A stretch of 11,711 nucleotides of DNA, from the UHGV virus genome UHGV-0118820. One strand, given 5' to 3'. Position 1 is the stretch's first letter. Each line of letters starts with the position of its first letter. Source of the DNA: a virus. The translations under genes were made by a program, and so were the position numbers. The notes below the pieces were generated by a model. That model worked only from the letters and a program-made list of their open reading frames with translations. It made no database searches and had not been told where the DNA came from. Below, in pieces: positions 230 to 11,711 of the stretch.

Positions 230-3200
230 ATGACTCATCAAACACACACCATTGCTGAATCCAATAACTTTATCGTTCTTGATAAGTACATCAAAGCTGA
301 GCCAACAGGCGACAGCTACCAGAGCGAATCGGACCTGGAACGAGAACTGATTCAGGACCTGCGGAATCAGGGCTATGAATTTATATCCGTAAAATCACAG
401 TCGGCGATGCTGGCCAATGTTCGGGAACAGCTTCAGAACCTCAATGGTGTGGTGTTTAATGACAGCGAGTGGCGGCGTTTCACGGAGCAGTATCTGGATA
501 ACCCGAGCGATGGCATTCTGGATAAGACCCGTAAAATCCATATCGACTATATTTGCGACTTTATTTTTGATGACGAGCGTCTTGAGAACATCTATTTGAT
601 AGATAAAAAGAATCTCATGCGCAATAAGGTGCAGATTATCCAGCAGTTTGAACAGACGGGTTCTCATGCTAACCGTTATGACGTCACGATCCTGGTTAAT
701 GGCTTACCGCTGGTGCAAATCGAACTGAAAAAACGCGGCGTGGCGATTCGTGAGGCTTTCAACCAGATACATCGTTACAGTAAAGAGAGTTTTAACAGCG
801 AAAATTCCCTGTTTAAGTATCTGCAACTGTTTGTCATTTCTAACGGCACCGATACCCGTTATTTTGCCAACACGACAAAGCGCGATAAAAACAGTTTTGA
901 CTTCACCATGAATTGGGCGAAATCAGACAACACGCTGATTAAAGACCTCAAAGATTTTACCGCTACCTTTTTCCAGAAACATACTCTGCTTAATGTTCTG
1001 GTGAACTACAGCGTTTTTGACAGCAGTCAGACGCTACTGGTGATGCGACCGTACCAGATTGCTGCCACCGAGCGCATTCTGTGGAAAATTAAGAGTTCCT
1101 TTACAGCGAAGAACTGGTCAAAACCGGAAAGCGGTGGGTATATCTGGCACACTACCGGTTCTGGTAAAACCCTCACCAGCTTTAAAGCCGCGCGTCTGGC
1201 AACAGAGCTGGACTTTATTGATAAAGTCTTCTTCGTGGTCGACAGGAAAGACCTCGATTACCAGACCATGAAGGAATATCAGCGTTTTTCGCCAGACAGC
1301 GTCAACGGCTCGGAAAATACCGCAGGCCTTAAACGAAATCTGGATAAGGACGATAACAAAATTATCGTCACTACTATTCAGAAACTCAATAACCTGATGA
1401 AAGCAGAAAGCGACCTGCCTGTATACAATCAGCAAGTGGTGTTTATATTTGATGAATGCCACCGCAGCCAGTTTGGAGAAGCGCAGAAAAACCTGAAGAA
1501 GAAATTCAAACGCTATTATCAGTTTGGTTTTACCGGTACCCCTATTTTCCCGGAAAACGCCTTAGGCTCAGAAACGACCGCCAGCGTATTTGGTCGTGAA
1601 TTGCATTCGTATGTAATTACCGATGCGATTCGTGATGAAAAAGTGCTCAAATTCAAGGTGGACTACAACGATGTGCGGCCACAGTTTAAGTCTTTAGAGA
1701 CAGAAACTGACGAGAAAAAACTAAGTGCGGCTGAAAATCAGCAGGCGTTTCTTCATCCCATGCGTATTCAGGAAATCACGCAATATATTCTGAATAATTT
1801 CCGCCAGAAAACTCACCGTACCTTCCCTGGCTCAAAAGGTTTTAATGCTATGTTGGCAGTGAGCAGCGTGGATGCCGCGAAAGCCTATTACGCGACGTTT
1901 AAACGGTTACAAGAGGAAGCAGCTAATAAATCGGCTACCTATAAACCGCTGCGTGTTGCGACAATCTTCTCCTTTGCTGCCAATGAAGAACAAAATGCCA
2001 TTGGTGAAATTTCCGATGAAACTTTTGATACCAGCGCAATGGACAGCAGTGCTAAAGAGTTTCTTGACGCTGCAATTCGTGAGTATAACAGCTATTTTAA
2101 AACTAACTTCAGCACCGACAGTAACGGTTTTCAGAACTACTATCGTGATTTAGCCCAACGGGTTAAAAATCAGGATATCGATCTGTTAATTGTCGTGGGG
2201 ATGTTTTTAACTGGCTTCGATGCTCCAACATTGAACACGCTATTCGTCGATAAAAACTTGCGTTTTCACGGCCTGATGCAGGCATTTTCCCGCACCAACC
2301 GTATTTATGATGCAACTAAAACCTTCGGTAATATCGTCACTTTCCGGGATCTGGAACGCTCAACTATTGATGCCATAACGCTGTTTGGTGACAAAAACAC
2401 CAAAAATGTGGTTTTAGAAAAGAGTTATGCAGAGTATATGGAAGGCTTTACTGATGCTGCCACTGGTGAAGCTAAGCGCGGCTTTATGGCAGTAGTTTCA
2501 GAACTGGAACAACGGTTCCCTGACCCTGCCAGTATTGAAAGTGAAAAAGAGAAGAAAGACTTCGTTAAACTGTTTGGTGAATACCTGCGTGCCGAGAACA
2601 TCCTGCAAAACTATGATGAATTTGCCACGCTGAAAGCCCTGCAACAAATCGATCTTAGCGATCCTGTTGCGGTAGAAAAATTCAAAGCAGAACATTATGT
2701 GGATGATGAAAAGCTCGCTGAATTGCAAACAATTCGTCTCCCTGCTGATCGCAAGATTCAGGATTATCGTTCTGCCTATAACGATATTCGCGACTGGCAG
2801 CGCCGTGAGAAAGAAGCTGAGAAAAAAGAGAAATCAACCACTGACTGGGATGACGTAGTTTTTGAGGTCGATTTGCTGAAGTCTCAGGAAATAAACCTGG
2901 ATTATATCCTTGGACTGATTTTCGAACACAACAGACAAAATAAAGGCAAGGGCGAAATGATCGAAGAGGTCAAACGCTTAATTCGTTCAAGCCTAGGGAA
3001 CCGTGCTAAAGAGGGCCTGGTGGTCGATTTTATTCAGCAAACGAACCTGGATGATTTACCAGACAAAGCCAGTATCATTGAGGCATTCTTTACGTTTGCT
3101 CAACGCGAACAGCAACGTGAAGCAGAAGCATTGATAAAAGAAGAAAATCTCAATGAAGATGCAGCAAAACGCTATATTCGCACGTCTTTAAAACGCGAAT

Positions 3201-3346
3201 ACGCCACCGAAAATGGCACAGAATTAAACGAAACATTACCAAAACTTAGTCCGTTAAATCCGCAATATAAAACGAAAAAACAGGCAGTTTTCCAGAAAAT
3301 CGTCTCGTTTATTGAGAAGTTTAAAGACGTAGGCGGAAAAATATAG
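230..3346 (+). CDS. hsdR: Type I restriction enzyme R subunit (HsdR), intact, 1038 aa; EcoR124-like (type IC) by recollection
   Basis: Single uninterrupted 3117-nt ORF with SD AAGGA. Contains helicase motif I (WHTTGSGKT), DEAD-box-like motif II (FIFDECH), an N-terminal PD-(D/E)xK nuclease region (VQIELKK) and motif VI (QAFSRTNR). Length and N-terminal sequence match my recollection of EcoR124I HsdR. Confidence 0.95.
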
Positions 3347-3362
3347 CCCAATTCGTGTTTTT

Positions 3363-3391
3363 CTTGCGGGTTCTTAATTAAACCCGCAAGA
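3363..3391. other. Perfect 10-bp inverted repeat (CTTGCGGGTT / AACCCGCAAG) with 8-nt loop, 17 nt downstream of hsdR stop
   Basis: Read directly from sequence. A T-run precedes the stem on the plus strand and no U-run follows it on either strand, so it is not a canonical intrinsic terminator. Confidence 0.5.
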
Positions 3392-3429
3392 GACCGTGGG
3401 GTTCCAAATGGCTAATATACTCCCCTTAC

Positions 3430-3513
3430 CTATGCGCGACAATGCTGCCAAAAGTGATAGAGAACAGCCAGAAATAGATCGCGGCCATAATGATTTTGAA
3501 TGCCGTGTTCATA
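3430..3513 (-). CDS. Candidate small hydrophobic peptide (27 aa, MNTAFKIIMAADLFLAVLYHFWQHCRA)
   Basis: ATG at 3513-3511 preceded by AGGAG (3526-3522) with 8-nt spacer; TAG stop at 3432-3430. Below the size cutoff of the ORF track. Predicted single membrane-spanning segment. No homolog recalled. Confidence 0.25.
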   Translation of the reverse strand, partial: YEHGIQNHYGRDLFLAVLYHFWQHCRA

Positions 3514-3540
3514 TTTTCAGCTCCTGTGATTGATTGGATA

Positions 3541-3570
3541 CATGCCGCGCCTTGCGGCATGTTTTTATTT
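3541..3570 (+). terminator. Rho-independent terminator (plus strand), probable hsdR transcript end
   Basis: GC-rich hairpin CATGCCGC-gcctt-GCGGCATG (3541-3561) followed by TTTTTATTTT. Confidence 0.6.
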
Positions 3571-3581
3571 TCCCTTTCTCT

Positions 3582-3621
3582 GTTTTAAAAATCAATATTT
3601 ATTAGAGCAATTATTGCTGAT
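3582..3621. repeat. Copy A of ~40-bp imperfect direct repeat (GTTTTAAAAAT-N6-TTATTAGAGCAAT-TATTGCTGAT), overlapping the stop codon of the HAD gene
   Basis: Matches 5723..5763 by eye: identical 11-mer and identical 13-mer, similar 3' tail. The 13-mer core also occurs inverted at 5687..5699. Confidence 0.55.
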
Positions 3622-4117
3622 GAAGAAGCGCGTTTTCATACTCCCTGACCATTAACGTAAGCACGCCGTGCCTCCTGAAAACACGCGCCACTTCAATCTT
3701 ATCTTCCAGCGCGAACGCAATTTTACTTAGACCAATTTTCTTAAGGAGATCAATCTTTGCTGGACCGTCATTTCTGTCATCGGTGGCGGGACGCATAGAT
3801 AGCAAAGGCTCTGCCCCATTTGTTACGTGCTTACGCAACCAGGCTCGTGTTTTATCCCTGGCTATCTCACAGCGCCCGGTTACAAACCAGAGCGTGTAAA
3901 TGCTGGACAACTGGCGCACCATATCAATAACTGGAGTGATGGGAGCATCAGTGTCACAGGCAAGGTTAAACTCGTTCCAGTGCTCTGTTAATGCACCGTT
4001 GCCAGGCGGTGGAAGTAAATGCAGCCTGTCTTCCGTTGCCTCTGATATCGTCCCATCAATATCTACTATGACGATATACGGACGTTCCTGGTGTGCGTGT
4101 TTATTGAAAATACTCAA
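3611..4117 (-). CDS. HAD-superfamily phosphatase, resembling the 3'-phosphatase domain of T4 polynucleotide kinase-phosphatase (stand-alone, no kinase domain)
   Basis: 168-aa ORF with TTG start preceded by GAGGAGG. HAD motif I IVDIDGT near the N-terminus; C-terminal LEDKIEVARVFRRHGV resembles my recollection of the T4 Pnkp tail IDDRTQVVEMWRRIGV. No P-loop. Confidence 0.65.
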   Translation of the reverse strand: MSIFNKHAHQERPYIVIVDIDGTISEATEDRLHLLPPPGNGALTEHWNEFNLACDTDAPITPVIDMVRQLSSIYTLWFVTGRCEIARDKTRAWLRKHVTNGAEPLLSMRPATDDRNDGPAKIDLLKKIGLSKIAFALEDKIEVARVFRRHGVLTLMVREYENALLHQQ

Positions 4118-4136
4118 ATGCCCTCCTCATTGGACG

Positions 4137-4170
4137 AAAAAAATGCTGGTGGGAGCACTCCACCAGCATT
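4137..4170 (-). terminator. Rho-independent terminator for the 420-aa gene (minus strand), directly upstream of the HAD gene RBS
   Basis: 11-bp stem AATGCTGGTGG / CCACCAGCATT (4142-4152 / 4160-4170) with 7-nt loop. On the minus strand it is followed by a U-run (plus-strand A-run ending at 4143). Confidence 0.55.
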
Positions 4171-4189
4171 AAAAGTGACACTGTAACTA

Positions 4190-5452
4190 TCAGCGAACGT
4201 AAATAGTGCCGCCGTTCTCTTTTTCCCATGCATCGCTACGTGCATAGCAAACATCGAGAAGTCTTCTTGCCGCAGTTTCCTCTAAACCCAATTCGACAAC
4301 CAACTGCTCATGACGGCGGGTAACCACATCAAACAGGGTATGCAGCCCTTTAGTTGCCAGATCATCAATGAATTCCGGTTCGAACGGCAGCTCTGCATCT
4401 GCCAACATAACCTCTTGCGCCCACTCAACTCGACGGACCAGTTCCGGGCGGCGGCTTTCCATCTCTTTACAGATCAATTCATGGAAGAACTCTACCCAAC
4501 CTTCCGGCTGGAACTCGCGGAAAATTGCCAACGGCTGGAAGTTTGGCATCAACCATTCGTTGATTCGGATATCAATGGCATAGCCCATGTCGCAGCAGAA
4601 CTGATAAGCAAAGTCCAGCTTAGAAACGATATAAGGACGCTCGTTATTGAACTCTTTAGGCGATGAGATCCCATAAGCCAGGAGGCGCGGGAAGAAGGAG
4701 ATTTGCCCTAACGTCGGATGAAGTTTGCTTGCAGGGAAACGTCGCTCAGTAATGCCATACATTTCCTTCTTGAGCGTCGCAAATTTGGCATTCTCATTAA
4801 CCAGCGCGGTAACCTCTGCTTTTTTATTAGCAAATGCCACGCGCGCCTCGCTTGCATCTTTAATAGTTTTTTTGAGCTGTTGGTTAAGGTCGGCGACCTG
4901 CTTACGCAGTTCCTGTCGCTCGCTTTTAGCTTTGTTATAGCGTTTCTCAAGGTTAAAAGGATCAAGTTTCATGATCTCTTTATATTGAGATTTTAGCGTT
5001 GAAATCTGTGAGTTCCGCAGTTCAACCATCGCGGTCATTTCATTGAGTTTTGTTTCCAGCTCAATGCTTATACGTTCGGCATTATCAGCACGCTGGTTGG
5101 CGTCATGCGTCGCATCGTCGATCGCGTCCTGTTGCTGGCGTTTCAAATGTTCAATTTGCAGCTGAAGCTCTTCAATTTCTTTACCCTTCAGACCGAGATC
5201 CAACTGCATATTTTCAGCTGCATCTACCAGGGAGTTATGGCTATCAGCTTCTGCGTTATAAACATCAATAAGCTGTGCGTGAAGCATCTCCGCTGACTGA
5301 ACCGCATTATCAAAAAAACGTGCTGTGAGGTCATCACAACTAACGCGGCGTTGCGCGGCCCGGATGTTCTGGATAATGGCCGGGATACCGGCATTCAGGA
5401 CGTCAGGGATAGATACATTTTCGATTGATTGGTTTTGTGCTGAAGTGCTCAT
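4190..5452 (-). CDS. Hypothetical protein, 420 aa: N-terminal ~230 aa predicted coiled coil, C-terminal ~190 aa globular domain of unknown family
   Basis: Long uninterrupted ORF. Start ATG 5452-5450 is 1 nt downstream of the stop of the 72-aa ORF. No P-loop or nuclease motif seen. Heptad-like Q/E/K/L-rich N-terminal half. Confidence 0.8.
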   Translation of the reverse strand: MSTSAQNQSIENVSIPDVLNAGIPAIIQNIRAAQRRVSCDDLTARFFDNAVQSAEMLHAQLIDVYNAEADSHNSLVDAAENMQLDLGLKGKEIEELQLQIEHLKRQQQDAIDDATHDANQRADNAERISIELETKLNEMTAMVELRNSQISTLKSQYKEIMKLDPFNLEKRYNKAKSERQELRKQVADLNQQLKKTIKDASEARVAFANKKAEVTALVNENAKFATLKKEMYGITERRFPASKLHPTLGQISFFPRLLAYGISSPKEFNNERPYIVSKLDFAYQFCCDMGYAIDIRINEWLMPNFQPLAIFREFQPEGWVEFFHELICKEMESRRPELVRRVEWAQEVMLADAELPFEPEFIDDLATKGLHTLFDVVTRRHEQLVVELGLEETAARRLLDVCYARSDAWEKENGGTIYVR

Positions 5453-5453
5453 T

Positions 5454-5672
5454 TCAAAGTTCCGTATTAGCTTGTGCTTCGGTCATTTTTCCTAAGTATG
5501 AAGGAGGAAGGACTACGCAATTTGTATCCAGTCCCTCACCTATGGCAGCCTGTAAAATTCTGGCTAAGGTGAGTCTCTTGTTGCGATACCTGGTGATGAC
5601 ATGCCTGATACCGCCGGTCGGCGTAACAAAGGCGATCAGCCAGTAGTGATATTTCCGTCGGAATGGCCACAT
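5454..5672 (-). CDS. Hypothetical small protein (72 aa), translationally coupled to the 420-aa gene
   Basis: ATG 5672-5670 preceded by AAGGTG. Stop TGA 5456-5454, then 1 nt, then the ATG of the downstream gene. No family recognised. Confidence 0.5.
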   Translation of the reverse strand: MWPFRRKYHYWLIAFVTPTGGIRHVITRYRNKRLTLARILQAAIGEGLDTNCVVLPPSYLGKMTEAQANTEL

Positions 5673-5686
5673 AGTGCACCTTATGG

Positions 5687-5752
5687 ATTGCTCTAATAAA
5701 AAACGTGATGAGTGTACATCACGTTTTAAAAATATGGAATTATTAGAGCAAT
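5687..5752. repeat. Perfect 13-bp inverted repeat (ATTGCTCTAATAA at 5687-5699 / TTATTAGAGCAAT at 5740-5752) bracketing a terminator hairpin
   Basis: Read directly from sequence. The arms are the same 13-mer that forms the core of the direct repeat at 3599-3611. Confidence 0.6.
5698..5727 (-). terminator. Bidirectional Rho-independent terminator ending the minus-strand operon 8768..5754
   Basis: Stem CGTGATG / CATCACG (5704-5710 / 5717-5723) with 6-nt loop, flanked by A6 on the left and T4 on the right. Reads as hairpin plus U6 on the minus strand. Confidence 0.55.
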
Positions 5753-5763
5753 ATTATTCTGAT
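5723..5763. repeat. Copy B of ~40-bp imperfect direct repeat, overlapping the stop codon of the glycosyltransferase-like gene
   Basis: See copy A (3582..3621). Both copies lie directly 3' of the stop codon of a minus-strand gene. Confidence 0.55.
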
Positions 5764-6455
5764 TCTTGCTCAAAAAACGAGCTGGTAAGGGGAAGCCAAT
5801 CCTCTGACACTTCGCGAGGCCGCGGTTTGCCGTGGAAAAAGATTATTCGGCAGTCTTTTGGTAATGCCCCATTCCCCCTGGAGTAACGCGCGCTCGCATA
5901 TTTTGAACCAGGTTCCACAACATCGGCCTTGTAACTTACAAACCATCCTGGATACAGATCCTGAAATGCTGGTGTATCATCGCCCATAACCTTTCGTAAG
6001 AACCCCTGGTCACCCCAGCACTCAGTAGTGACACAACGAGAAATCCAACCTTCCGGATCTTGCCAGAATGAACTCCAGATATGCGCTTTAACACTATTTG
6101 GTATCCACAGGGCACCGCTGCCACGATATTGTGGATGGTAAAAATCCCTAAGCATGGTGAAGCTGGTTGGTGGATGCTCTAGGATTGGGCGTATATCACC
6201 GGCAATAACCGTGTCCAAATCCAGATAGAACAGATCATCGGTTATATCCGGTCGGAACAACTCGATTTTCGCCCACCAGCCACGGCACTTTTGCCACTGG
6301 TTGATCAATGGGACAACTTTGACGCCAGGTACATGTAAACGCTTCAGGTCTGTCAGGCAAATAATTTCATAGCCTTTTGGCAGTTGATTAACCAGCCACT
6401 GCACATCGGAAGCGTTATAGTCACCACCAGAGCGAAAAACTAAAGCAATCTTCAT
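5754..6455 (-). CDS. Putative GT-A fold glycosyltransferase (DxD-type), 233 aa
   Basis: [13 protein letters not shown] matches the DxD nucleotide-sugar/metal motif context. C-terminal FHGKPRP resembles the H-x-G-x-KPW motif of GT8/GT32-like enzymes. ATG overlaps the stop of the upstream phosphatase ORF as ATGA. Confidence 0.55.
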
Positions 6456-7107
6456 GCTGCACCATCACCTTTCACTTTCATCAATGTCAGGTTTCCGCAA
6501 AATACGGCACCAGTGTCGATATACTGCTGATTCCAGAATGTCTTCGGGCTTTTCACCGGAGTGTGACCAAAGATAAAACGATCTGCGCCCGAAATTTCGC
6601 CACCAATATCATCCATCGAATCACTGATACGCTCGCGCGCCCAGACAACGTTGAAAAGCGGCACCTCCTTACCGAATTGGTATTCATTATCCGGATAGTC
6701 GGCATGGGCTATAACGATAGTTTCTTGCCCGGTGTTCAACTCAATGATATAGGGCAGACGTCTTACCAGCTCCACCAGCGCCCTGGCTAATATTTCCTGA
6801 TCAGTGTCCAGCATGAAGAACCATTGTCCGCCATTCATTAGCCAGTTATTCACGTTATCATCAGCCGCTCATGGTTCCCCATCACTGCCCTGAACCAGGG
6901 CATCTGCAATAGTTCCAGACATTCGACATTTTCAGTACCGCGATCGATAAGGTCGCCGACCGATATCAGTAAATCCTGCGCCGGGTCAAAATCCACACGA
7001 TGGAGTTCGGACATCAGTCTGGTGTAGCAACCATGCAGATCACCAACAACCCAGACATTCCTGTATTTGGTACCGTCGATACGGTGATAAATTGTGGGTG
7101 CCATCAT
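6452..7107 (-). pseudogene. Lambda-type Ser/Thr protein phosphatase (calcineurin-like metallophosphoesterase), interrupted by a frameshift
   Basis: Two adjacent ORFs (7107..6850 and 6853..6452) in different frames. Together they carry GDLHGC, GDLIDRG, GNHE, then WLMNGG and [13 protein letters not shown], closely matching my recollection of lambda phosphatase. The frame breaks right after GNHERLMIT, where about 7 residues expected before NVNNW are missing. Confidence 0.75.
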
Positions 7108-7730
7108 GTATTCTTCAGCCATTCTTTAAGAGTCATCTGCGGAATACCTCCCATTTTCCCGCATGAAACAACGTCAATCCGTTCACGCGCAGACTGGAAT
7201 AACAAAGGCAGGTGACTTAGATTTTTTGGCGTGCCGCCGGAGTGAACGCGTGGTTCTTGTGTAGCGTCAACGCCCACCAGGGCGACATGTTTGAATCCGA
7301 TATGGAAAGCCAGGTTCAGAGCGCCATATGCACTATTGCCGCTGGCAATTTCATTCTCATCTTCGCAAAGTCCGAAATGTGCGGACCAGCGCCACGCCCA
7401 CCACTCGGGAGAATTCGTATTTTTTGGCTCCATGCCACGTTCAGCCACACGACGGAAGCACAGAACGCCGTCTCTGACTTCACGTTCTTTAACATCGGGT
7501 AGTGCCATGCAATAACAAACACCACGGCGACGGCGGCCACGACCAACGCGCCGCATATTGTCTGGCGATGGATCAAGGGTGAAAAAATAAGAAGCGCGGT
7601 TCAGCCAGTCGATGGCCCCATTGACCGCTATAATCGGCACTCCGCGCGGCGCAACAAAGTTTGCGGCGCTTGGGCCACTGCCGACGATAATAACGCGATC
7701 ACTGCCTCTAAATTTATTCTTGGGAAACAT
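7104..7730 (-). CDS. GT42 sialyltransferase-like / DUF115 (MptE-like) Rossmann-fold protein, paralog B (208 aa)
   Basis: N-terminal [10 protein letters not shown] and IIAVNG, later [12 protein letters not shown] and VALVGVD. This pattern resembles Cst-II-type sialyltransferases (IIAGNGPSL, FRCNQ) from memory. Stop overlaps the phosphatase start as ATGA. Start preceded by AGGAG. Confidence 0.55.
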
Positions 7731-8257
7731 TGAATTGCACTGCTCCTACTTGCATTCAAAATATGTAAATCTGCGTGTTTTTTGCGGGTATCCAGGAACT
7801 GCTGTTGCCATTTTGAAATAGACACCTGCGTTGGATTCCGTAGGGCTTGAGGGTGCGCGCCATGCCAATGAAGGCCGTTTTGCAGAGAACAGTCATAGCC
7901 GACTAATACCACTACTTCAGCCCCTGATTCAGCAGCCAGACTGATAGCCTGCGCGCCGCTATTTACCCCTTCCGCCGGTCCACAATATCGCCTGTACTCC
8001 AACGAAAATGATTTCGCCGCCGCCAGGTTGGCTGTCACTTTGCGGAATCTCCCTCCCGGTATGGTGGATCCGTATTGCTTCCACCATGACAAATCACCGG
8101 CGTATAAGGCATAAATGTCATCGAACATCTGCCAGGAATTGTTAACCGCGATGATTGAACAGCCAGTTTTTTCTATAGCAGCACAGTCCTCACGAGTGAG
8201 TGACGGACCGCTACCGACACAAAAAACAGTCCTAGTCGCCCTGGGTGGTATGTTCAT
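7628..8257 (-). CDS. GT42 sialyltransferase-like / DUF115 (MptE-like) Rossmann-fold protein, paralog A (start placed at MNIPP)
   Basis: VFCVGSGPSL, IIAVNNS, NSGAQAISLA and VVVLVGYD parallel the motifs of paralog B. The ORF could begin 11 codons earlier at 8290. Its 3' end overlaps the start of paralog B by about 100 nt. Confidence 0.55.
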   Translation of the reverse strand: MNIPPRATRTVFCVGSGPSLTREDCAAIEKTGCSIIAVNNSWQMFDDIYALYAGDLSWWKQYGSTIPGGRFRKVTANLAAAKSFSLEYRRYCGPAEGVNSGAQAISLAAESGAEVVVLVGYDCSLQNGLHWHGAHPQALRNPTQVSISKWQQQFLDTRKKHADLHILNASRSSAIQCFPRINLEAVIALLSSAVAQAPQTLLRRAECRL

Positions 8258-8429
8258 TCTCAGCTGCAAATTCAGCCTCCAGGCGAGCATTCATTTCAGC
8301 GATTACCGGGTCCACTACAGCATCTGCTTCCTGTTCATTACGCGGCATGATCGATGCCAGCGATTCATAATTAGCCTTGAATGACACGATTATTCTCCCG
8401 ATGTTAATGTGCGCTATATCAAAGAGCAC
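8232..8429 (-). CDS. Possible small acidic protein (at most 65 aa; GTG-initiated in the ORF track)
   Basis: ORF-track entry only. No convincing RBS. Overlaps the start of paralog A. AT-rich upstream region. Confidence 0.2.
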   Translation of the reverse strand: MLFDIAHINIGRIIVSFKANYESLASIMPRNEQEADAVVDPVIAEMNARLEAEFAAENEHTTQGD

Positions 8430-8453
8430 ATATGCACTAATTAATTTATTATT

Positions 8454-8768
8454 TTAAGCAGCATACAACCACTTATCGCCGTTCAATACATGCTCAATAG
8501 CCTCACCCTTTTTAAGGCTTATGTATTCCAGGATGGCGGTAATCGCTTGTTCTGCACCATACGCAAGAACGACGTAGTAACCTTCCTCTCTAAGCCTGCG
8601 CATCCAGGCGATCTGCTCTTTCGTCGGGGCTTTACCATTTGGTTCTTTAAGCTCAATTCGCATGCCGTGATAAATACCGCATGCTTTATCGAGACTCATG
8701 TCCGGATAACCTTTTTTCTGCCCTTCAGCCTTCATTTTCCCGGCGGTTGCTTTTGAACGTTTCCCTCT
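8454..8768 (-). pseudogene. VRR-NUC domain (PD-(D/E)xK) nuclease gene, 5' end truncated by IS insertion
   Basis: GYPDMSL and IELKEPNGKAPTKEQIAWMRRLREEGYYVV match the VRR-NUC core. The N-terminal part of the domain is absent. The ORF-track N-terminus ([24 protein letters not shown], 8769-8840) is encoded by the IS inverted repeat, so it is a chimeric artefact. Confidence 0.7.
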
Positions 8769-8839
8769 GAAGTGGTTTACTGAATTTGGCCACCTGAACA
8801 GAGGTGATATGCTCACCTCAGAACAACACAGGTGCTCCA

Positions 8840-9102
8840 ATGAAAAAAAGAAATTTCAGCGCAGAGTTTAAACGCGAATCCGCTCAACTGGTTGTTGACC
8901 AGAACTACACGGTGGCAGATGCCGCCAAAGCTATGGATGTTGGCCTTTCCACAATGACAAGATGGGTCAAACAACTGCGTGATGAGCGTCAGGGCAAAAC
9001 ACCAAAAGCCTCTCCGATAACACCAGAACAAATCGAAATACGTGAGCTGAGGAAAAAGCTACAACGCATTGAAATGGAGAATGAAATATTAAAAAAGGCT
9101 AC
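8840..9102 (+). pseudogene. IS3-family OrfA (HTH transposase N-terminal protein), 3' end interrupted by IS30
   Basis: [16 protein letters not shown]...[12 protein letters not shown], then the reading frame runs into the IS30 terminal repeat. The ORF-track start at 8804 is an upstream extension; ATG at 8840 is the likely true start. Confidence 0.8.
9091..9097 (+). promoter_or_regulatory. A-AAA-AAG programmed -1 frameshift heptamer of the IS3-family element
   Basis: AAAAAAG in the X-XXY-YYZ register of the orfA frame (codons tta-aaa-aag). Known frameshift signal of IS911-type elements. IS30 is inserted 5 nt downstream. Confidence 0.6.
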
Positions 9103-10323
9103 TGTAGATTCAATCTGTCAATGCAACACCCCTTTCAATTATCTCTTTCGGTGTTTTGAACTTCAGTGTCTTTCTCGGTCTGTTGTTTAGCTGAGCAGCA
9201 ACCAGATCTAGTTCATGTTGAGTATATTGGGCAAGACATGTCTTTTTAGGAAAGTACTGCCGAATTAGCCCATTTGTGTTCTCATTTGTTCCCCGCTGCC
9301 AAGGACTCTGAGGATCGCAGAAGTAAACTTTAACGCCGGTGCTGACAGTAAATTCTAGATGTCTGGCCAGTTCCATTCCTCTGTCCCATGTCAGTGATTT
9401 TCTGAGTTCTGACGGTAAACTCAGGAATTTGTCGGTAAGAGCCTGATTTACTGAGACAGAATCTTTGCCCCTGAGTCTAAGGATGATCGTATAACGTGAT
9501 TTTCGGTCTACAAGTGTGGCTATATGAGAGTTTTTTGTACCTGAGACTAAATCGCCCTCCCAATGCCCCAGAGAGCGTCTGTTATCGATATTTCGGGAAC
9601 GTTCGTGAATTGGTGTTCCGTTCACTATGTTAATCGTACCTCTTTCGCCTTTGCGGGTATGACGCCTGCCATGGCGAAGGCTATGCGACCGTCGCAGATG
9701 CTGTATATTCAGGTGGTGTAGCGCTTCACGGCTACGAAAGTACAGCGTTTTATAAATTGTCTCAGGTGATATTCGCAGCGTTTTTTGACGTGGTTTTGTT
9801 CGCCTTAACCATCCTGATATTTGCTCTGGAGACCATTTCATCTCCAGCTTTTCCAGAACAAGCTTTCGCAATGGTAAATTTTGATCCAGTAAGCACGGTT
9901 TTGGCCTTTTCGCCATTCTGTTGGCTCGGTTATTAGCATCAACAGCTTTGTAATAGCGTCTGCCCCGATTACGCTGAACTTCACGTGAGATCGTCGAAGG
10001 ACTGCGATTCAGCGCAGTAGCTATCGCACGAATGCTCATTTTGGCTGACAAACCAGCTCGTATCTCCTCGCGCTCAGACAGTGTCAGGTGAGCTACAGCC
10101 CGCTTACGCTCATGGGGTTTTATGCCGCCAGTATCCCTTAACATAGTGAAGATCGTTCCGGGTTTTGAACCCAGGATATTCGCTATTTCACTGAAGCCTG
10201 TTCCGTTCTTCCATAGTTCAAAAACAGAGGCTTTTTCCTCTGCTGTAAATGTTCGTCTCATTCAAAAAACCTCCGCAACCCCATGTTTTCACATAACTGT
10301 TGCGTTGACCAATTGAATCTACA
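9103..10323 (-). mobile_element. IS30, complete (1221 bp) with 26-bp terminal inverted repeats
   Basis: Terminal repeats TGTAGATTCAATCTGTCAATGCAACA (9103-9128) and TGTTGCGTTGACCAATTGAATCTACA (10298-10323). Length and ends match my recollection of IS30. Confidence 0.9.
9110..10261 (-). CDS. insI: IS30 transposase (383 aa)
   Basis: Intact 383-aa ORF with an N-terminal HTH region and a DDE integrase core (HWEGDLV). Size is as expected for the IS30 transposase. Confidence 0.92.
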
Positions 10324-10325
10324 GC

Positions 10326-11211
10326 GGCGTACTTCGCAAAGCTGTCCGACTGAGGTACGCCTTTATCCGTGACAACTCCTGTTGCTGGCCTGTTCGCCTG
10401 CTCTGTCGGGTGCTGGATGTTCATCCCAGTGGTTTTTACGCCTGGCTTCAGCAGCCGCATTCACAACGCCATCAGGCAGACCTGAGACTGACAGGACAGA
10501 TTAAACAGTTCTGGCTGGAATCGGGATGCGTCTATGGTTATCGCAAAATCCATCTGGATCTGCGTGACAGCGGGCAACAGTGCGGAGTAAACAGAGTCTG
10601 GAGACTGATGAAACGTGTCGGAATAAAGGCTCAGGTCGGATACCGAAGCCCGCGGGCACGTAAAGGCGAGGCCAGTATCGTGTCGCCCAACAGGCTTCAG
10701 CGACAGTTCAATCCGGATGCTCCGGATGAGCGTTGGGTAACGGATATAACCTACATCAGGACCCACGAAGGCTGGCTGTATCTTGCCGTGGTTGTTGATC
10801 TGTTCTCACGCAAAATTATCGGCTGGTCCATGCAATCCCGGATGACAAAGGACATTGTCCTGAACGCACTGCTGATGGCTGTATGGCGGCGTAATCCCCA
10901 AAAACAGGTGCTGGTTCATTCGGATCAGGGCAGTCAATGAATGGCAGTCGTTCCTGAAATCACACGGCCTGGAGGGCAGCATGAGCCGTCGCGGTAACTG
11001 CCATGATAATGCGGTTGCAGAAAGCTTTTTCCAGTTGTTGAAACGCGAACGGATAAAGAAAAAGATCTACGGAACGCGGGAAGAAGCCCGCAGCGATATT
11101 TTTGATTACATCGAAATGTTTTATAACAGTAAGCGTCGGCATGGTTCCAGCGATCAGATGTCACCGACAGAATATGAAAACCAGTATTATCAACGGCTCG
11201 GAAGTGTCTAA
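10326..11211 (+). pseudogene. IS3-family OrfB (DDE transposase/integrase), frameshifted
   Basis: The frame is open from 10326 (…CRVLDVHPSGFYAW…) through WVTDITYI and LVHSDQGSQ to a stop at 10938-10940. The remaining C-terminus (SMSRRGNCHDNAVAESFF…) continues in another frame to TAA 11209-11211. A 1-nt-class indel lies near 10935-10945. Confidence 0.75.
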
Positions 11212-11553: not shown

Positions 11554-11711
11554 GGTAATGCTGCCAACTTACTGATTTAGTGTATGATGGTGATTTTAAG
11601 GTGCTTGCGTGGCTTCCATTTCCATCAGATGTCCTTCCTGCTCCGCTACTGAAGGCGTGGTGCGTAACGGCAAAAGCACTGCCGGACATCAGCGCTATCT
11701 CTGCTCTCACT
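11554..11711 (+). mobile_element. IS1 family element, left end (continues beyond window); sequence variant of canonical IS1
   Basis: GGTAATGCTGCCAACTTACTGATTTAGTGTATGATGG matches the IS1 terminal inverted repeat from memory, with a few substitutions. Followed by the start of insA. Confidence 0.85.
11609..11711 (+). CDS. insA: IS1 InsA, N-terminal part (truncated by window end)
   Basis: GTG start, then [33 protein letters not shown]: the zinc-finger-like N-terminus of IS1 InsA. Confidence 0.8.

What the first reader, a model, noticed from the sequence alone, without database searches (positions are those of the whole stretch)
5687..5752. Nested palindrome: 13-bp perfect inverted repeat arms around a bidirectional terminator hairpin
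ATTGCTCTAATAA (5687-5699) and TTATTAGAGCAAT (5740-5752) are perfect inverse copies separated by 40 bp, and the 40 bp itself contains the terminator hairpin with A6/T4 flanks. The same 13-mer recurs at 3599-3611 next to a small palindrome GCAAT-T-ATTGC. This may be an operator for a dimeric regulator, a recombinase site, or a compound RNA structure separating the two gene blocks.
Basis: seen in the sequence. Interest (0 to 1): 0.45.

Follow-up and report, generated by a model that had tools for sequence, protein, structure and literature searches.

The report
Phage P1 C1 repressor operators Op86a/b
The "nested palindrome" is the already catalogued pair of C1-repressor binding sites (Op86a and Op86b) that flank the promoter of the phage P1 gene pmgR, with a small terminator hairpin between them, so it is a real but ordinary and known phage regulatory region.

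Summary
ATTGCTCTAATAA lies at 5687-5699, its perfect inverse copy at 5740-5752, and a third copy at 3599-3611. A stable hairpin lies between the first two. The window holds a 5.3-kb piece of a phage P1-like plasmid (pmgM'-pap, about 98% identical to P1), and the 66-bp element is base-for-base identical to P1 and P7. The P1 and P7 GenBank records annotate these positions as binding sites of the phage repressor C1: OpmgRb/Op86b (5687-5703, +), OpmgRa/Op86a (5736-5752, -) and OpmgT/Op88 (3595-3611, -). Op86a overlaps the -35 of the predicted promoter PpmgR. The 13-mer is the core of the asymmetric 17-bp C1 operator consensus ATTGCTCTAATAAATTT. In P1 it occurs 12 times with at most one mismatch (0.25 expected), mostly just upstream of annotated genes. 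The inner hairpin is most likely a one-way intrinsic terminator ending the pmgQ transcript. Diverged relatives keep it through two compensatory base-pair changes and through G·U pairs on the gene-sense strand only. The predicted -10 and transcription start of PpmgR lie inside the hairpin. No evidence supports a recombination site, a regulator role for the 72-aa PmgR, or a functional outer RNA stem. Verdict: already known, low interest.

The parts
5687..5703 (+). C1 operator OpmgRb (former Op86b), ATTGCTCTAATAAAAAA. It lies between the predicted PpmgR start site and the pmgR start codon, antisense to the genes.
   Evidence: 14/17 match to the consensus. Identical to P1 and P7. Annotated protein_bind 'phage repressor C1' at the homologous position in AF234172 and AF503408.
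5736..5752 (-). C1 operator OpmgRa (former Op86a), ATTGCTCTAATAATTCC. It starts 2 nt after the pmgQ stop codon and contains the -35 of PpmgR.
   Evidence: The P1 record's note reads 'controls expression of pmgR and pmgS'.
5746..5751 (-). Predicted -35 hexamer TTGCTC of sigma-70 promoter PpmgR, inside Op86a.
   Evidence: P1 annotation mapped onto the window. This is a prediction by the P1 annotators, not a mapped start site.
5723..5728 (-). Predicted -10 hexamer TAAAAC of PpmgR (17-bp spacer). It overlaps the 5' arm of the hairpin.
   Evidence: It is not listed by the generic promoter scan, which requires T at position 6 of the hexamer; TAAAAC ends in C.
5694..5727 (-). Hairpin AAAACGUGAUG-UACACU-CAUCACGUUUU followed by UUAUUA. 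Likely an intrinsic terminator for transcripts coming from pmgQ.
   Evidence: -13.4 kcal/mol, z = -5.7. Two compensatory pair changes and G·U pairs only on this strand among relatives.
3595..3611 (-). C1 operator OpmgT (former Op88), ATTGCTCTAATAAATAT. It overlaps the pap stop codon by 1 nt and contains the -35 of predicted P2pmgT (-35 at 3605-3610, -10 at 3582-3587).
   Evidence: 16/17 match to the consensus. P1 and P7 annotation. The 30-nt direct repeat D1 with the Op86a region reflects the same operator-plus-promoter layout.
8431..8447 (+). Homologue of C1 operator Oppp (former Op83), TATGCACTAATTAATTT, between pmgM' and pmgN.
   Evidence: 13/17 match. The homologous P1 site is annotated as a C1 operator.
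5454..5672 (-). pmgR (72 aa), first gene downstream of the element.
   Evidence: [quoted passage not shown]
5754..6455 (-). pmgQ (233 aa), last gene upstream of the element. Its stop codon is at 5756-5754.
4190..5452 (-). pmgS (420 aa, coiled-coil), transcribed with pmgR.
3611..4117 (-). pap (168 aa, PNKP-type phosphatase domain).

Best explanation
The element is the pmgQ-pmgR intergenic control region of a phage P1-type replicon. The two 13-bp arms are the conserved cores of two separate, oppositely oriented 17-bp binding sites for the P1 lysogeny repressor C1. Read along the minus (gene-sense) strand, the order is as follows: pmgQ stop codon; Op86a, which contains the -35 TTGCTC of promoter PpmgR; a 17-bp spacer; the -10 TAAAAC; a hairpin with a U6 tail; Op86b; the ribosome-binding site AAGGTG; the pmgR ATG. 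In a lysogen, C1 on Op86a would block RNA polymerase from the -35. C1 on Op86b, about +14 to +30 from the predicted start, would add a downstream block or stabilise the first repressor. Together they would keep pmgR-pmgS(-pap) off until C1 is inactivated. The hairpin most likely terminates transcripts arriving from the upstream pmgN-pmgQ genes. The -10 and predicted start site (about 5716) lie inside the hairpin, so transcripts started at PpmgR lack its 5' arm and are not terminated. The third copy (Op88) is the same kind of operator-plus-promoter module. In P1 it drives pmgT; in this window it faces the 3' end of a type IC hsdR gene. What is shown: sequence identity with the annotated P1 and P7 operators, the dispersed motif, and conservation and covariation of the hairpin. 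What is inferred: the mechanism of repression at each site, termination activity, and the position of the start site.
For: The window at 3422-8767 is 97.9% identical to P1, and the 66-bp element is identical in P1 and P7. Both records annotate the three sites as 'phage repressor C1' operators, and the P1 record places PpmgR over Op86a. The published 17-bp asymmetric consensus is ATTGCTCTAATAAATTT, with 22 operators reported in P1 (PMC8546580). In P1 the 13-mer has 7 exact copies and 12 with at most 1 mismatch, against 0.25 in shuffles. Most of these copies lie just upstream of annotated genes (ssb, kilA, uhr, pmgR, pmgT) or in the region upstream of coi. A closely related plasmid with the same hsdR-pap junction encodes C1 about 10 kb away. 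In 119 IMG/VR contigs, 91 carry exactly this 66-mer, while the few bases just downstream of it vary freely. A Salmonella plasmid and Cronobacter phage JK004, whose PmgS is only about 69% identical, keep both operators, the 40-bp spacing, the hairpin and the U6 tail, but with a different stem sequence. Two pairs change on both sides (GC to AU and AU to GC). All 12 one-sided changes that keep a pair are G·U on the gene-sense strand. RNA from the predicted start onward (5716-5694) has no structure, at 0 kcal/mol.
Against: No c1 gene lies in the window, so the repressor's presence on this replicon is inferred from relatives. The P1 segment here is truncated by insertion sequences and ppp is frameshifted, so the region may sit in a decaying prophage where the sites are relics. 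PpmgR is only a predicted, weak promoter: 3/6 match at -35 and 4/6 at -10. The generic scan does not list it, and its -10 is degraded in JK004 (TGAAGC). The same scan did not list the hairpin as terminator-like. The stem core has only 4 G-C pairs. Six of the 220 stem cells in the variant alignment are unpaired, all in single contigs. The compensatory changes may represent only one or two evolutionary events. I could not read the primary P1 genome paper, so the experimental status of Op86a and Op86b rests on the GenBank notes and on my recollection of 1980s-90s C1 footprinting work.
Confidence: 0.9

Rival explanations
1. The whole nested palindrome acts as one compound RNA structure, with the outer 13-bp stem stacked on the inner hairpin. 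It could serve, for example, as an RNase III processing site or a stabiliser between the two gene blocks.
For: The minus-strand RNA folds into exactly this shape at -26.9 kcal/mol, z = -8.7.
Against: Two inverted C1 operators fully account for the outer arms. The same 13-mer occurs singly at many other P1 sites. Transcripts that end at the U6 tail never contain the 3' arm, and transcripts started at PpmgR never contain the 5' arm. Only read-through RNA could form the outer stem. The one outer position that varies among relatives (column 1/66) is not compensated: 3 of 20 variants are unpaired there.
Confidence: 0.04
2. The arms form a palindromic operator for a dimeric regulator other than C1, such as the adjacent 72-aa protein PmgR.
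For: Perfect 13-bp inverted repeats next to a small gene resemble an autoregulatory layout.
Against: PmgR has no Pfam match at all, so no DNA-binding domain. It is described as a morphogenesis protein. A 40-bp gap between half-sites is far beyond typical dimer operators. The motif works as isolated asymmetric sites elsewhere in P1 and is annotated as C1-bound.
Confidence: 0.02
3. The arms are a site-specific recombination or inversion site, or the ends of a small mobile unit. The direct copies at 3599 and 5740 would bracket pap-pmgS-pmgR.
For: There are perfect 13-bp inverted arms, and a 30-nt imperfect direct repeat joins 3582-3611 and 5723-5752.
Against: The 420-aa protein between the repeats is PmgS, not an integrase. 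The spacer is 40 bp. All 118 related contigs carry the inner segment in the same orientation relative to its flanks. Gene order is the same in P1, P7, JK004 and the Salmonella plasmid. A shared operator-plus-promoter module explains the direct repeat.
Confidence: 0.01
4. The sites are intact in sequence but are non-functional relics here. The window would come from a degraded P1-derived plasmid that no longer makes C1 or no longer needs these genes.
For: The P1 homology is only 5.3 kb. It is bounded by a type IC hsd locus and by IS3-family, IS30 and IS1 debris, and ppp is frameshifted. Many matches lie on 120-200 kb plasmids loaded with cargo genes.
Against: The element is identical to functional P1. 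pmgR, pmgS and pap are intact. A relative with the same junction still encodes C1, Phd/Doc and an antirepressor-like protein.
Confidence: 0.15

Closest known systems
Phage P1/P7 C1-controlled operators OpmgRa/OpmgRb (Op86a/Op86b; called Op(sht[a]) and Op(sht[b]) in P7) with promoter PpmgR
   Same: Identical 66-bp sequence, the same position between pmgQ and pmgR, and the same flanking genes.
   Different: The element itself does not differ. The surrounding replicon does: pmgT onward is replaced by a type IC hsd locus, and the upstream pmgL/pmgM region is cut by insertion sequences.
P1 operator OpmgT (Op88) next to type IC hsd loci (EcoR124 and EcoDXXI context)
   Same: The third 13-mer copy is this operator. 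The P1 record itself notes that the homologous DNA is 96-98% identical to sequence downstream of the EcoDXXI hsd locus and of hsdR on plasmid R124/3. The window shows the same junction with an EcoR124-type HsdR.
   Different: In P1 the operator controls pmgT. Here the predicted promoter points into the hsdR 3' flank, and no pmgT follows.
Bivalent P1 operators (two overlapping inverted C1 sites, as in the site pair at 64716-64743 of P1 record OP279344)
   Same: Two C1 sites in inverted orientation at one locus (sites at 64716 and 64727 overlap).
   Different: Op86a and Op86b do not overlap. They are 32 bp apart (49 bp centre to centre) and are annotated as two monovalent operators, with a hairpin between them.
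Rho-independent (intrinsic) terminators
   Same: A stem-loop followed by a U-rich tail immediately after the last gene of a transcription unit, with the stem preserved by compensatory changes.
   Different: The stem is short and A/U-rich, with 4 G-C pairs. It overlaps the -10 and start site of the next promoter, and the U-tail is part of an operator. The P1 record does not annotate it as a terminator in the stretch I read.

Membership tests
P1-type C1 repressor operator | Match to the asymmetric 17-bp consensus ATTGCTCTAATAAATTT | tested here: met
   Matches are 14/17 (5687-5703), 14/17 (5736-5752) and 16/17 (3595-3611). There are 3 hits against 0.07 expected. The consensus is taken from PMC8546580.
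P1-type C1 repressor operator | Homologous in position to an operator catalogued in P1 or P7 | tested here: met
   The sequence is identical to P1 and P7. The sites are annotated as OpmgRb/Op86b, OpmgRa/Op86a and OpmgT/Op88.
P1-type C1 repressor operator | The motif is dispersed over the genome near gene starts, and its TTGCTC often serves as a -35 | tested here: met
   P1 has 12 copies with at most 1 mismatch against 0.25 expected. Most lie just upstream of annotated genes, and each is followed by a T/A-rich -10-like stretch.
P1-type C1 repressor operator | The cognate C1 repressor is encoded on the same replicon | not testable with these tools
   The 11.7-kb window has no c1 gene. The related plasmid pPK8568-122kb, which has the same hsdR-pap junction, encodes 'phage repressor protein C1'.
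P1-type C1 repressor operator | Physical binding by C1 and C1-dependent repression | not testable with these tools
   This rests on the depositors' notes in the P1 and P7 records. The primary paper was not available.
Intrinsic (Rho-independent) terminator | A stable stem-loop directly followed by a U-rich tract on the transcribed strand | tested here: met
   The minus-strand RNA has an 8-bp core (4 G-C pairs), extended by A-U pairs to 11 bp, then UUUUUUAUUA, at -13.4 kcal/mol. Caveat: the generic scan did not list it. I think this is because the stem extends into the T-run, but that is my inference.
Intrinsic (Rho-independent) terminator | Location just downstream of the last gene of a transcription unit | tested here: met
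   The pmgQ stop codon is at 5756-5754 and the hairpin at 5727-5700.
Intrinsic (Rho-independent) terminator | The structure is conserved by covariation | tested here: met
   Two pairs change on both sides. The 12 one-sided changes are all G·U on the sense strand, and 97.3% of cells are paired. This represents few independent events.
Intrinsic (Rho-independent) terminator | Transcripts end there in vivo | not testable with these tools
   The session held no 3'-end data.
Site-specific recombination site (lox- or cix-like) | Inverted arms around a short (6-8 bp) crossover spacer, with evidence of inversion or excision | tested here: not met
   The spacer is 40 bp. None of 118 contigs carries the core inverted. 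The window has no adjacent recombinase gene.

The most novel reading that the evidence does not exclude
The one feature that the P1 record does not annotate is the overlap of three functions within 66 bp: a terminator whose 5' stem contains the -10 and start site of the next promoter, and whose U-tail is the start of a second, downstream repressor site. If this is real, it is a compact insulator. Upstream transcripts would stop, locally started transcripts would escape because they lack half the hairpin, and C1 on Op86b would catch any read-through.
Probability: 0.4. Interest if true: 0.2.

Novelty: already known. Interest (0 to 1): 0.07.

Why it matters
It matters little beyond correct annotation. 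Recognising the 13-mer as the C1 operator core identifies the window as P1-derived DNA. It also explains all three copies, plus a fourth degenerate one at 8431-8447, and removes the need for a new regulator or recombination system. The small new point is evidence from diverged relatives that the hairpin between Op86a and Op86b is under selection as an RNA structure on the gene-sense strand. That gives a testable picture of how P1 separates the pmgN-pmgQ and pmgR-pap transcription units.

Tried and rejected
- **Integrase island.** My first guess was that the 420-aa and 72-aa genes were an integrase and excisionase bracketed by att-like direct repeats. I rejected it: the proteins are PmgS and PmgR and have no integrase domain.
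- **tRNA and Rfam scans.** The window gave no hits.
- **Generic promoter and terminator scan.** It listed neither PpmgR nor the hairpin, so both rest on other evidence.
- **The P1 genome paper.** I tried to read Lobocka et al. 2004 by PMC id and by DOI, and neither is held. Literature searches for Op86 or Op88 returned no P1 paper. One search call failed on term length.
- **Diverged relatives.** The genome-contig scan with PmgS found only two near-identical loci. The useful relatives came from tblastn against phages and plasmids.
- **Inversion polymorphism.** I tested for it among the IMG/VR contigs and found none.
- **GCAAT-T-ATTGC at 3607-3617.** This is the last 5 nt of Op88 next to a 5-nt match. 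I treat it as chance.

Full report
**Observation**

ATTGCTCTAATAA lies at 5687-5699 and its exact reverse complement at 5740-5752, 40 bp apart. A third copy, in the same orientation as the second, lies at 3599-3611 and is followed by GCAAT-T-ATTGC. Allowing up to two mismatches, the 13-mer has three matches in the window against 0.32 expected. The 40-bp core contains the hairpin ACGTGATG-N6-CATCACGT, flanked by A6 and T4 on the plus strand. The minus-strand RNA of 5680-5760 folds into the full nested structure at -26.9 kcal/mol, z = -8.7.

**Source of the DNA**

All genes from 3611 to 8840 lie on the minus strand. The 2.6 kb around the finding is 98% identical to phage P1, P7 and hundreds of 90-100 kb P1-like E. 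coli and Salmonella plasmids.

Window 3422-8767 aligns with P1 as one block at 97.9% identity. It covers a truncated pmgM, pmgN-P, ppp, pmgQ, pmgR, pmgS and pap.

To the left lies a 1038-aa EcoR124-type (type IC) HsdR. To the right lies an IS3-family element interrupted by an IS30 copy (9102-10324, 27-bp inverted ends), and then an IS1 fragment.

**Identity of the arms**

The 66-bp element is identical base for base in P1 (AF234172) and P7 (AF503408). Both records annotate the homologous positions as protein_bind 'phage repressor C1':

| Window position | Strand | P1 name | Former name |
|---|---|---|---|
| 5687-5703 | + | OpmgRb | Op86b |
| 5736-5752 | - | OpmgRa | Op86a |
| 3595-3611 | - | OpmgT | Op88 |

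The record describes Op86a as 'monovalent' and notes that it 'controls expression of pmgR and pmgS'. The 13-mer is the first 13 bases of the asymmetric 17-bp C1 operator consensus ATTGCTCTAATAAATTT. P1 is reported to have 22 such operators (PMC8546580). The three window sites match the consensus at 14, 14 and 16 of 17 positions. There are three hits where 0.07 are expected, and 0 of 200 shuffles reach three.

A fourth, weaker site at 8431-8447 (TATGCACTAATTAATTT) is the homologue of P1's Op83.

I scanned a complete P1 genome (OP279344). It has 7 exact copies of the 13-mer and 12 with at most one mismatch, against 0.25 in shuffles. Most lie just upstream of annotated genes (ssb, kilA, uhr, pmgR, pmgT) or in the region upstream of coi. 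Most of these are single sites, so the motif is not a half-palindrome.

**Layout on the gene-sense (minus) strand**

| Feature | Window coordinates |
|---|---|
| pmgQ stop codon | 5756-5754 |
| Op86a | 5752-5736 |
| Predicted -35 TTGCTC (inside Op86a) | 5751-5746 |
| Predicted -10 TAAAAC (17-bp spacer) | 5728-5723 |
| Hairpin | 5727-5700 |
| T6 run | 5703-5698 |
| Op86b | 5703-5687 |
| Shine-Dalgarno AAGGTG | 5682-5677 |
| pmgR ATG | 5672 |

The 30-nt direct repeat between 3582-3611 and 5723-5752 arises because Op88 with P2pmgT and Op86a with PpmgR share one module. Each has an operator containing the -35, followed by TTTTTAAAAC as the -10. Variants of this module follow most P1 operators.

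**The hairpin**

The minus-strand RNA gives AAAACGUGAUG-UACACU-CAUCACGUUUU followed by UUAUUA, at -13.4 kcal/mol, z = -5.7. The plus strand has only a U4 tail, and no plus-strand gene runs into it. I therefore read it as a one-way terminator for transcripts leaving pmgQ.

Among 119 IMG/VR contigs retrieved by the arm pattern, 91 carry exactly the window's 66-mer. The few bases between Op86b and the ribosome-binding site vary freely.

Three sources of more distant sequence were compared: a Salmonella Newport plasmid, Cronobacter phage JK004 (PmgS about 69% identical to the window's), and a few IMG/VR contigs. They keep both operators, the 40-bp spacing, the six-base loop length and the U6 tail. 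Their stem reads (A/G)CATGGTG...CACCATGT, with CGCCATGT on the 3' side in JK004.

On the alignment of 20 distinct variants, two stem pairs change on both sides (G-C to A-U and A-U to G-C). All 12 one-sided changes that keep a pair are G·U on the gene-sense strand, which would be C·A mismatches on the other strand. Overall 97.3% of stem cells are paired.

This supports selection on the sense-strand RNA structure, not on a protein-binding DNA sequence. It rests on few independent events, and six single-contig variants do break a pair.

The predicted -10 overlaps the 5' stem. A transcript started about 7 nt downstream (near 5716) would therefore lack the 5' arm, and RNA 5716-5694 has no predicted structure. 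So transcripts from PpmgR would escape the terminator while incoming ones stop. This is inference: the start site has not been mapped in anything I could read.

**How it most likely works**

In a lysogen, C1 occupies Op86a and hides the -35 of PpmgR. C1 on Op86b, downstream of the start, adds a second block. pmgR-pmgS(-pap) are then silent until C1 is inactivated. From memory, not verified here, C1 binds each asymmetric site as a monomer, and Lxc (Bof) strengthens binding. [quoted passage not shown]

**Rivals**

- **Functional outer RNA stem.** This is unlikely. Terminated transcripts lack its 3' arm, PpmgR transcripts lack its 5' arm, and the only variable outer position is uncompensated.
- **Dimeric regulator such as PmgR.** PmgR has no Pfam match, and the 40-bp gap is too long for a dimer operator.
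- **Recombination site.** The long spacer, the absence of a recombinase gene and the absence of any inverted core in 118 contigs all argue against it.
- **Relic sites.** This caveat is real. The window has no c1 gene, its P1 segment is cut by insertion sequences, and ppp is frameshifted. The sites could be relics on a decaying P1-derived plasmid. A relative with the same hsdR-pap junction still encodes C1.

**Comparison with what is known, and verdict**

The element is a member of the P1 C1 operator set, not merely similar to it. Every sequence-level criterion was met. C1 binding itself and the presence of c1 on this replicon could not be tested.

The junction of Op88 DNA with a type IC hsdR is also already recorded in the P1 annotation, for EcoDXXI and R124/3. 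It falls in a region reported as highly variable among P1-like phage-plasmids (PMC9603915).

The finding is real, well above chance and already known. The only modest addition is comparative support for a terminator that shares sequence with the promoter and with Op86b.

Noticed in passing
window 230-3346 (+) and 3346-3422: An EcoR124-type (type IC) HsdR of 1038 aa ends 76 bp before the P1 homology begins at 3422, which is where pmgT would start in P1. The hsd locus therefore replaces pmgT and the genes downstream of it. The P1 GenBank record itself notes 96-98% identity of this flank to DNA downstream of EcoDXXI hsd and of R124/3 hsdR.
   Followed up: partly
window 6452-7144 (-): The ppp gene (lambda-like Ser/Thr phosphatase) is split into ORFs of 133 aa and 90 aa by a frameshift or deletion near codon 95, relative to P1. 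A related plasmid also has ppp flagged as a pseudogene.
   Followed up: partly
window 9102-10324: An IS30-like element (383-aa transposase, 27-nt inverted ends 89% complementary) is inserted into an IS3-family element. That element's orfA starts at 8804, and its orfB pieces lie at 10410-11211. It in turn truncates pmgM at 8767. An IS1-like fragment (90% identical to P1's IS1) lies at 11554-11711.
   Followed up: partly
window 3540-3562 (+) and 3510-3512 (-): A strong hairpin (ACATGCCGCG-CCT-TGCGGCATGT followed by TTTTATTTT) reads as a plus-strand terminator. It lies between Op88 and a minus-strand ATG at 3512 that has a good ribosome-binding site (AGGAGC). In this window it is positioned to end hsdR transcripts. 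In P1 the same hairpin lies in the pmgT leader. The small ORF starting at 3512 is not annotated in the P1 stretch I read.
   Followed up: no
window 5313-5337 versus 5698-5722: A 25-nt stretch inside the 5' part of pmgS is 80% identical to the Op86 hairpin region (AAAAAACGTGCTGTGAGGTCATCAC). The scan scores it as a minus-strand terminator-like hairpin with a T7 tail (5340-5322). It could be an internal attenuator or chance.
   Followed up: no
window 4142-4170 (-): A strong terminator-like hairpin (11 pairs, 6 G-C, T5 tail) lies between pmgS and pap. It suggests that pap may not be simply co-transcribed with pmgR-pmgS, although the P1 note mentions control of only pmgR and pmgS by Op86a.
   Followed up: no
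L006 2201-2266 and 4339-4355; L007 2204-2269: Cronobacter phage JK004 and a Salmonella Newport plasmid carry unannotated homologues of the Op86a/b element, and JK004 also carries one of Op88. Their PmgS is about 69% identical to the window's. The C1-type operator core is therefore conserved well beyond P1 and P7.
   Followed up: partly
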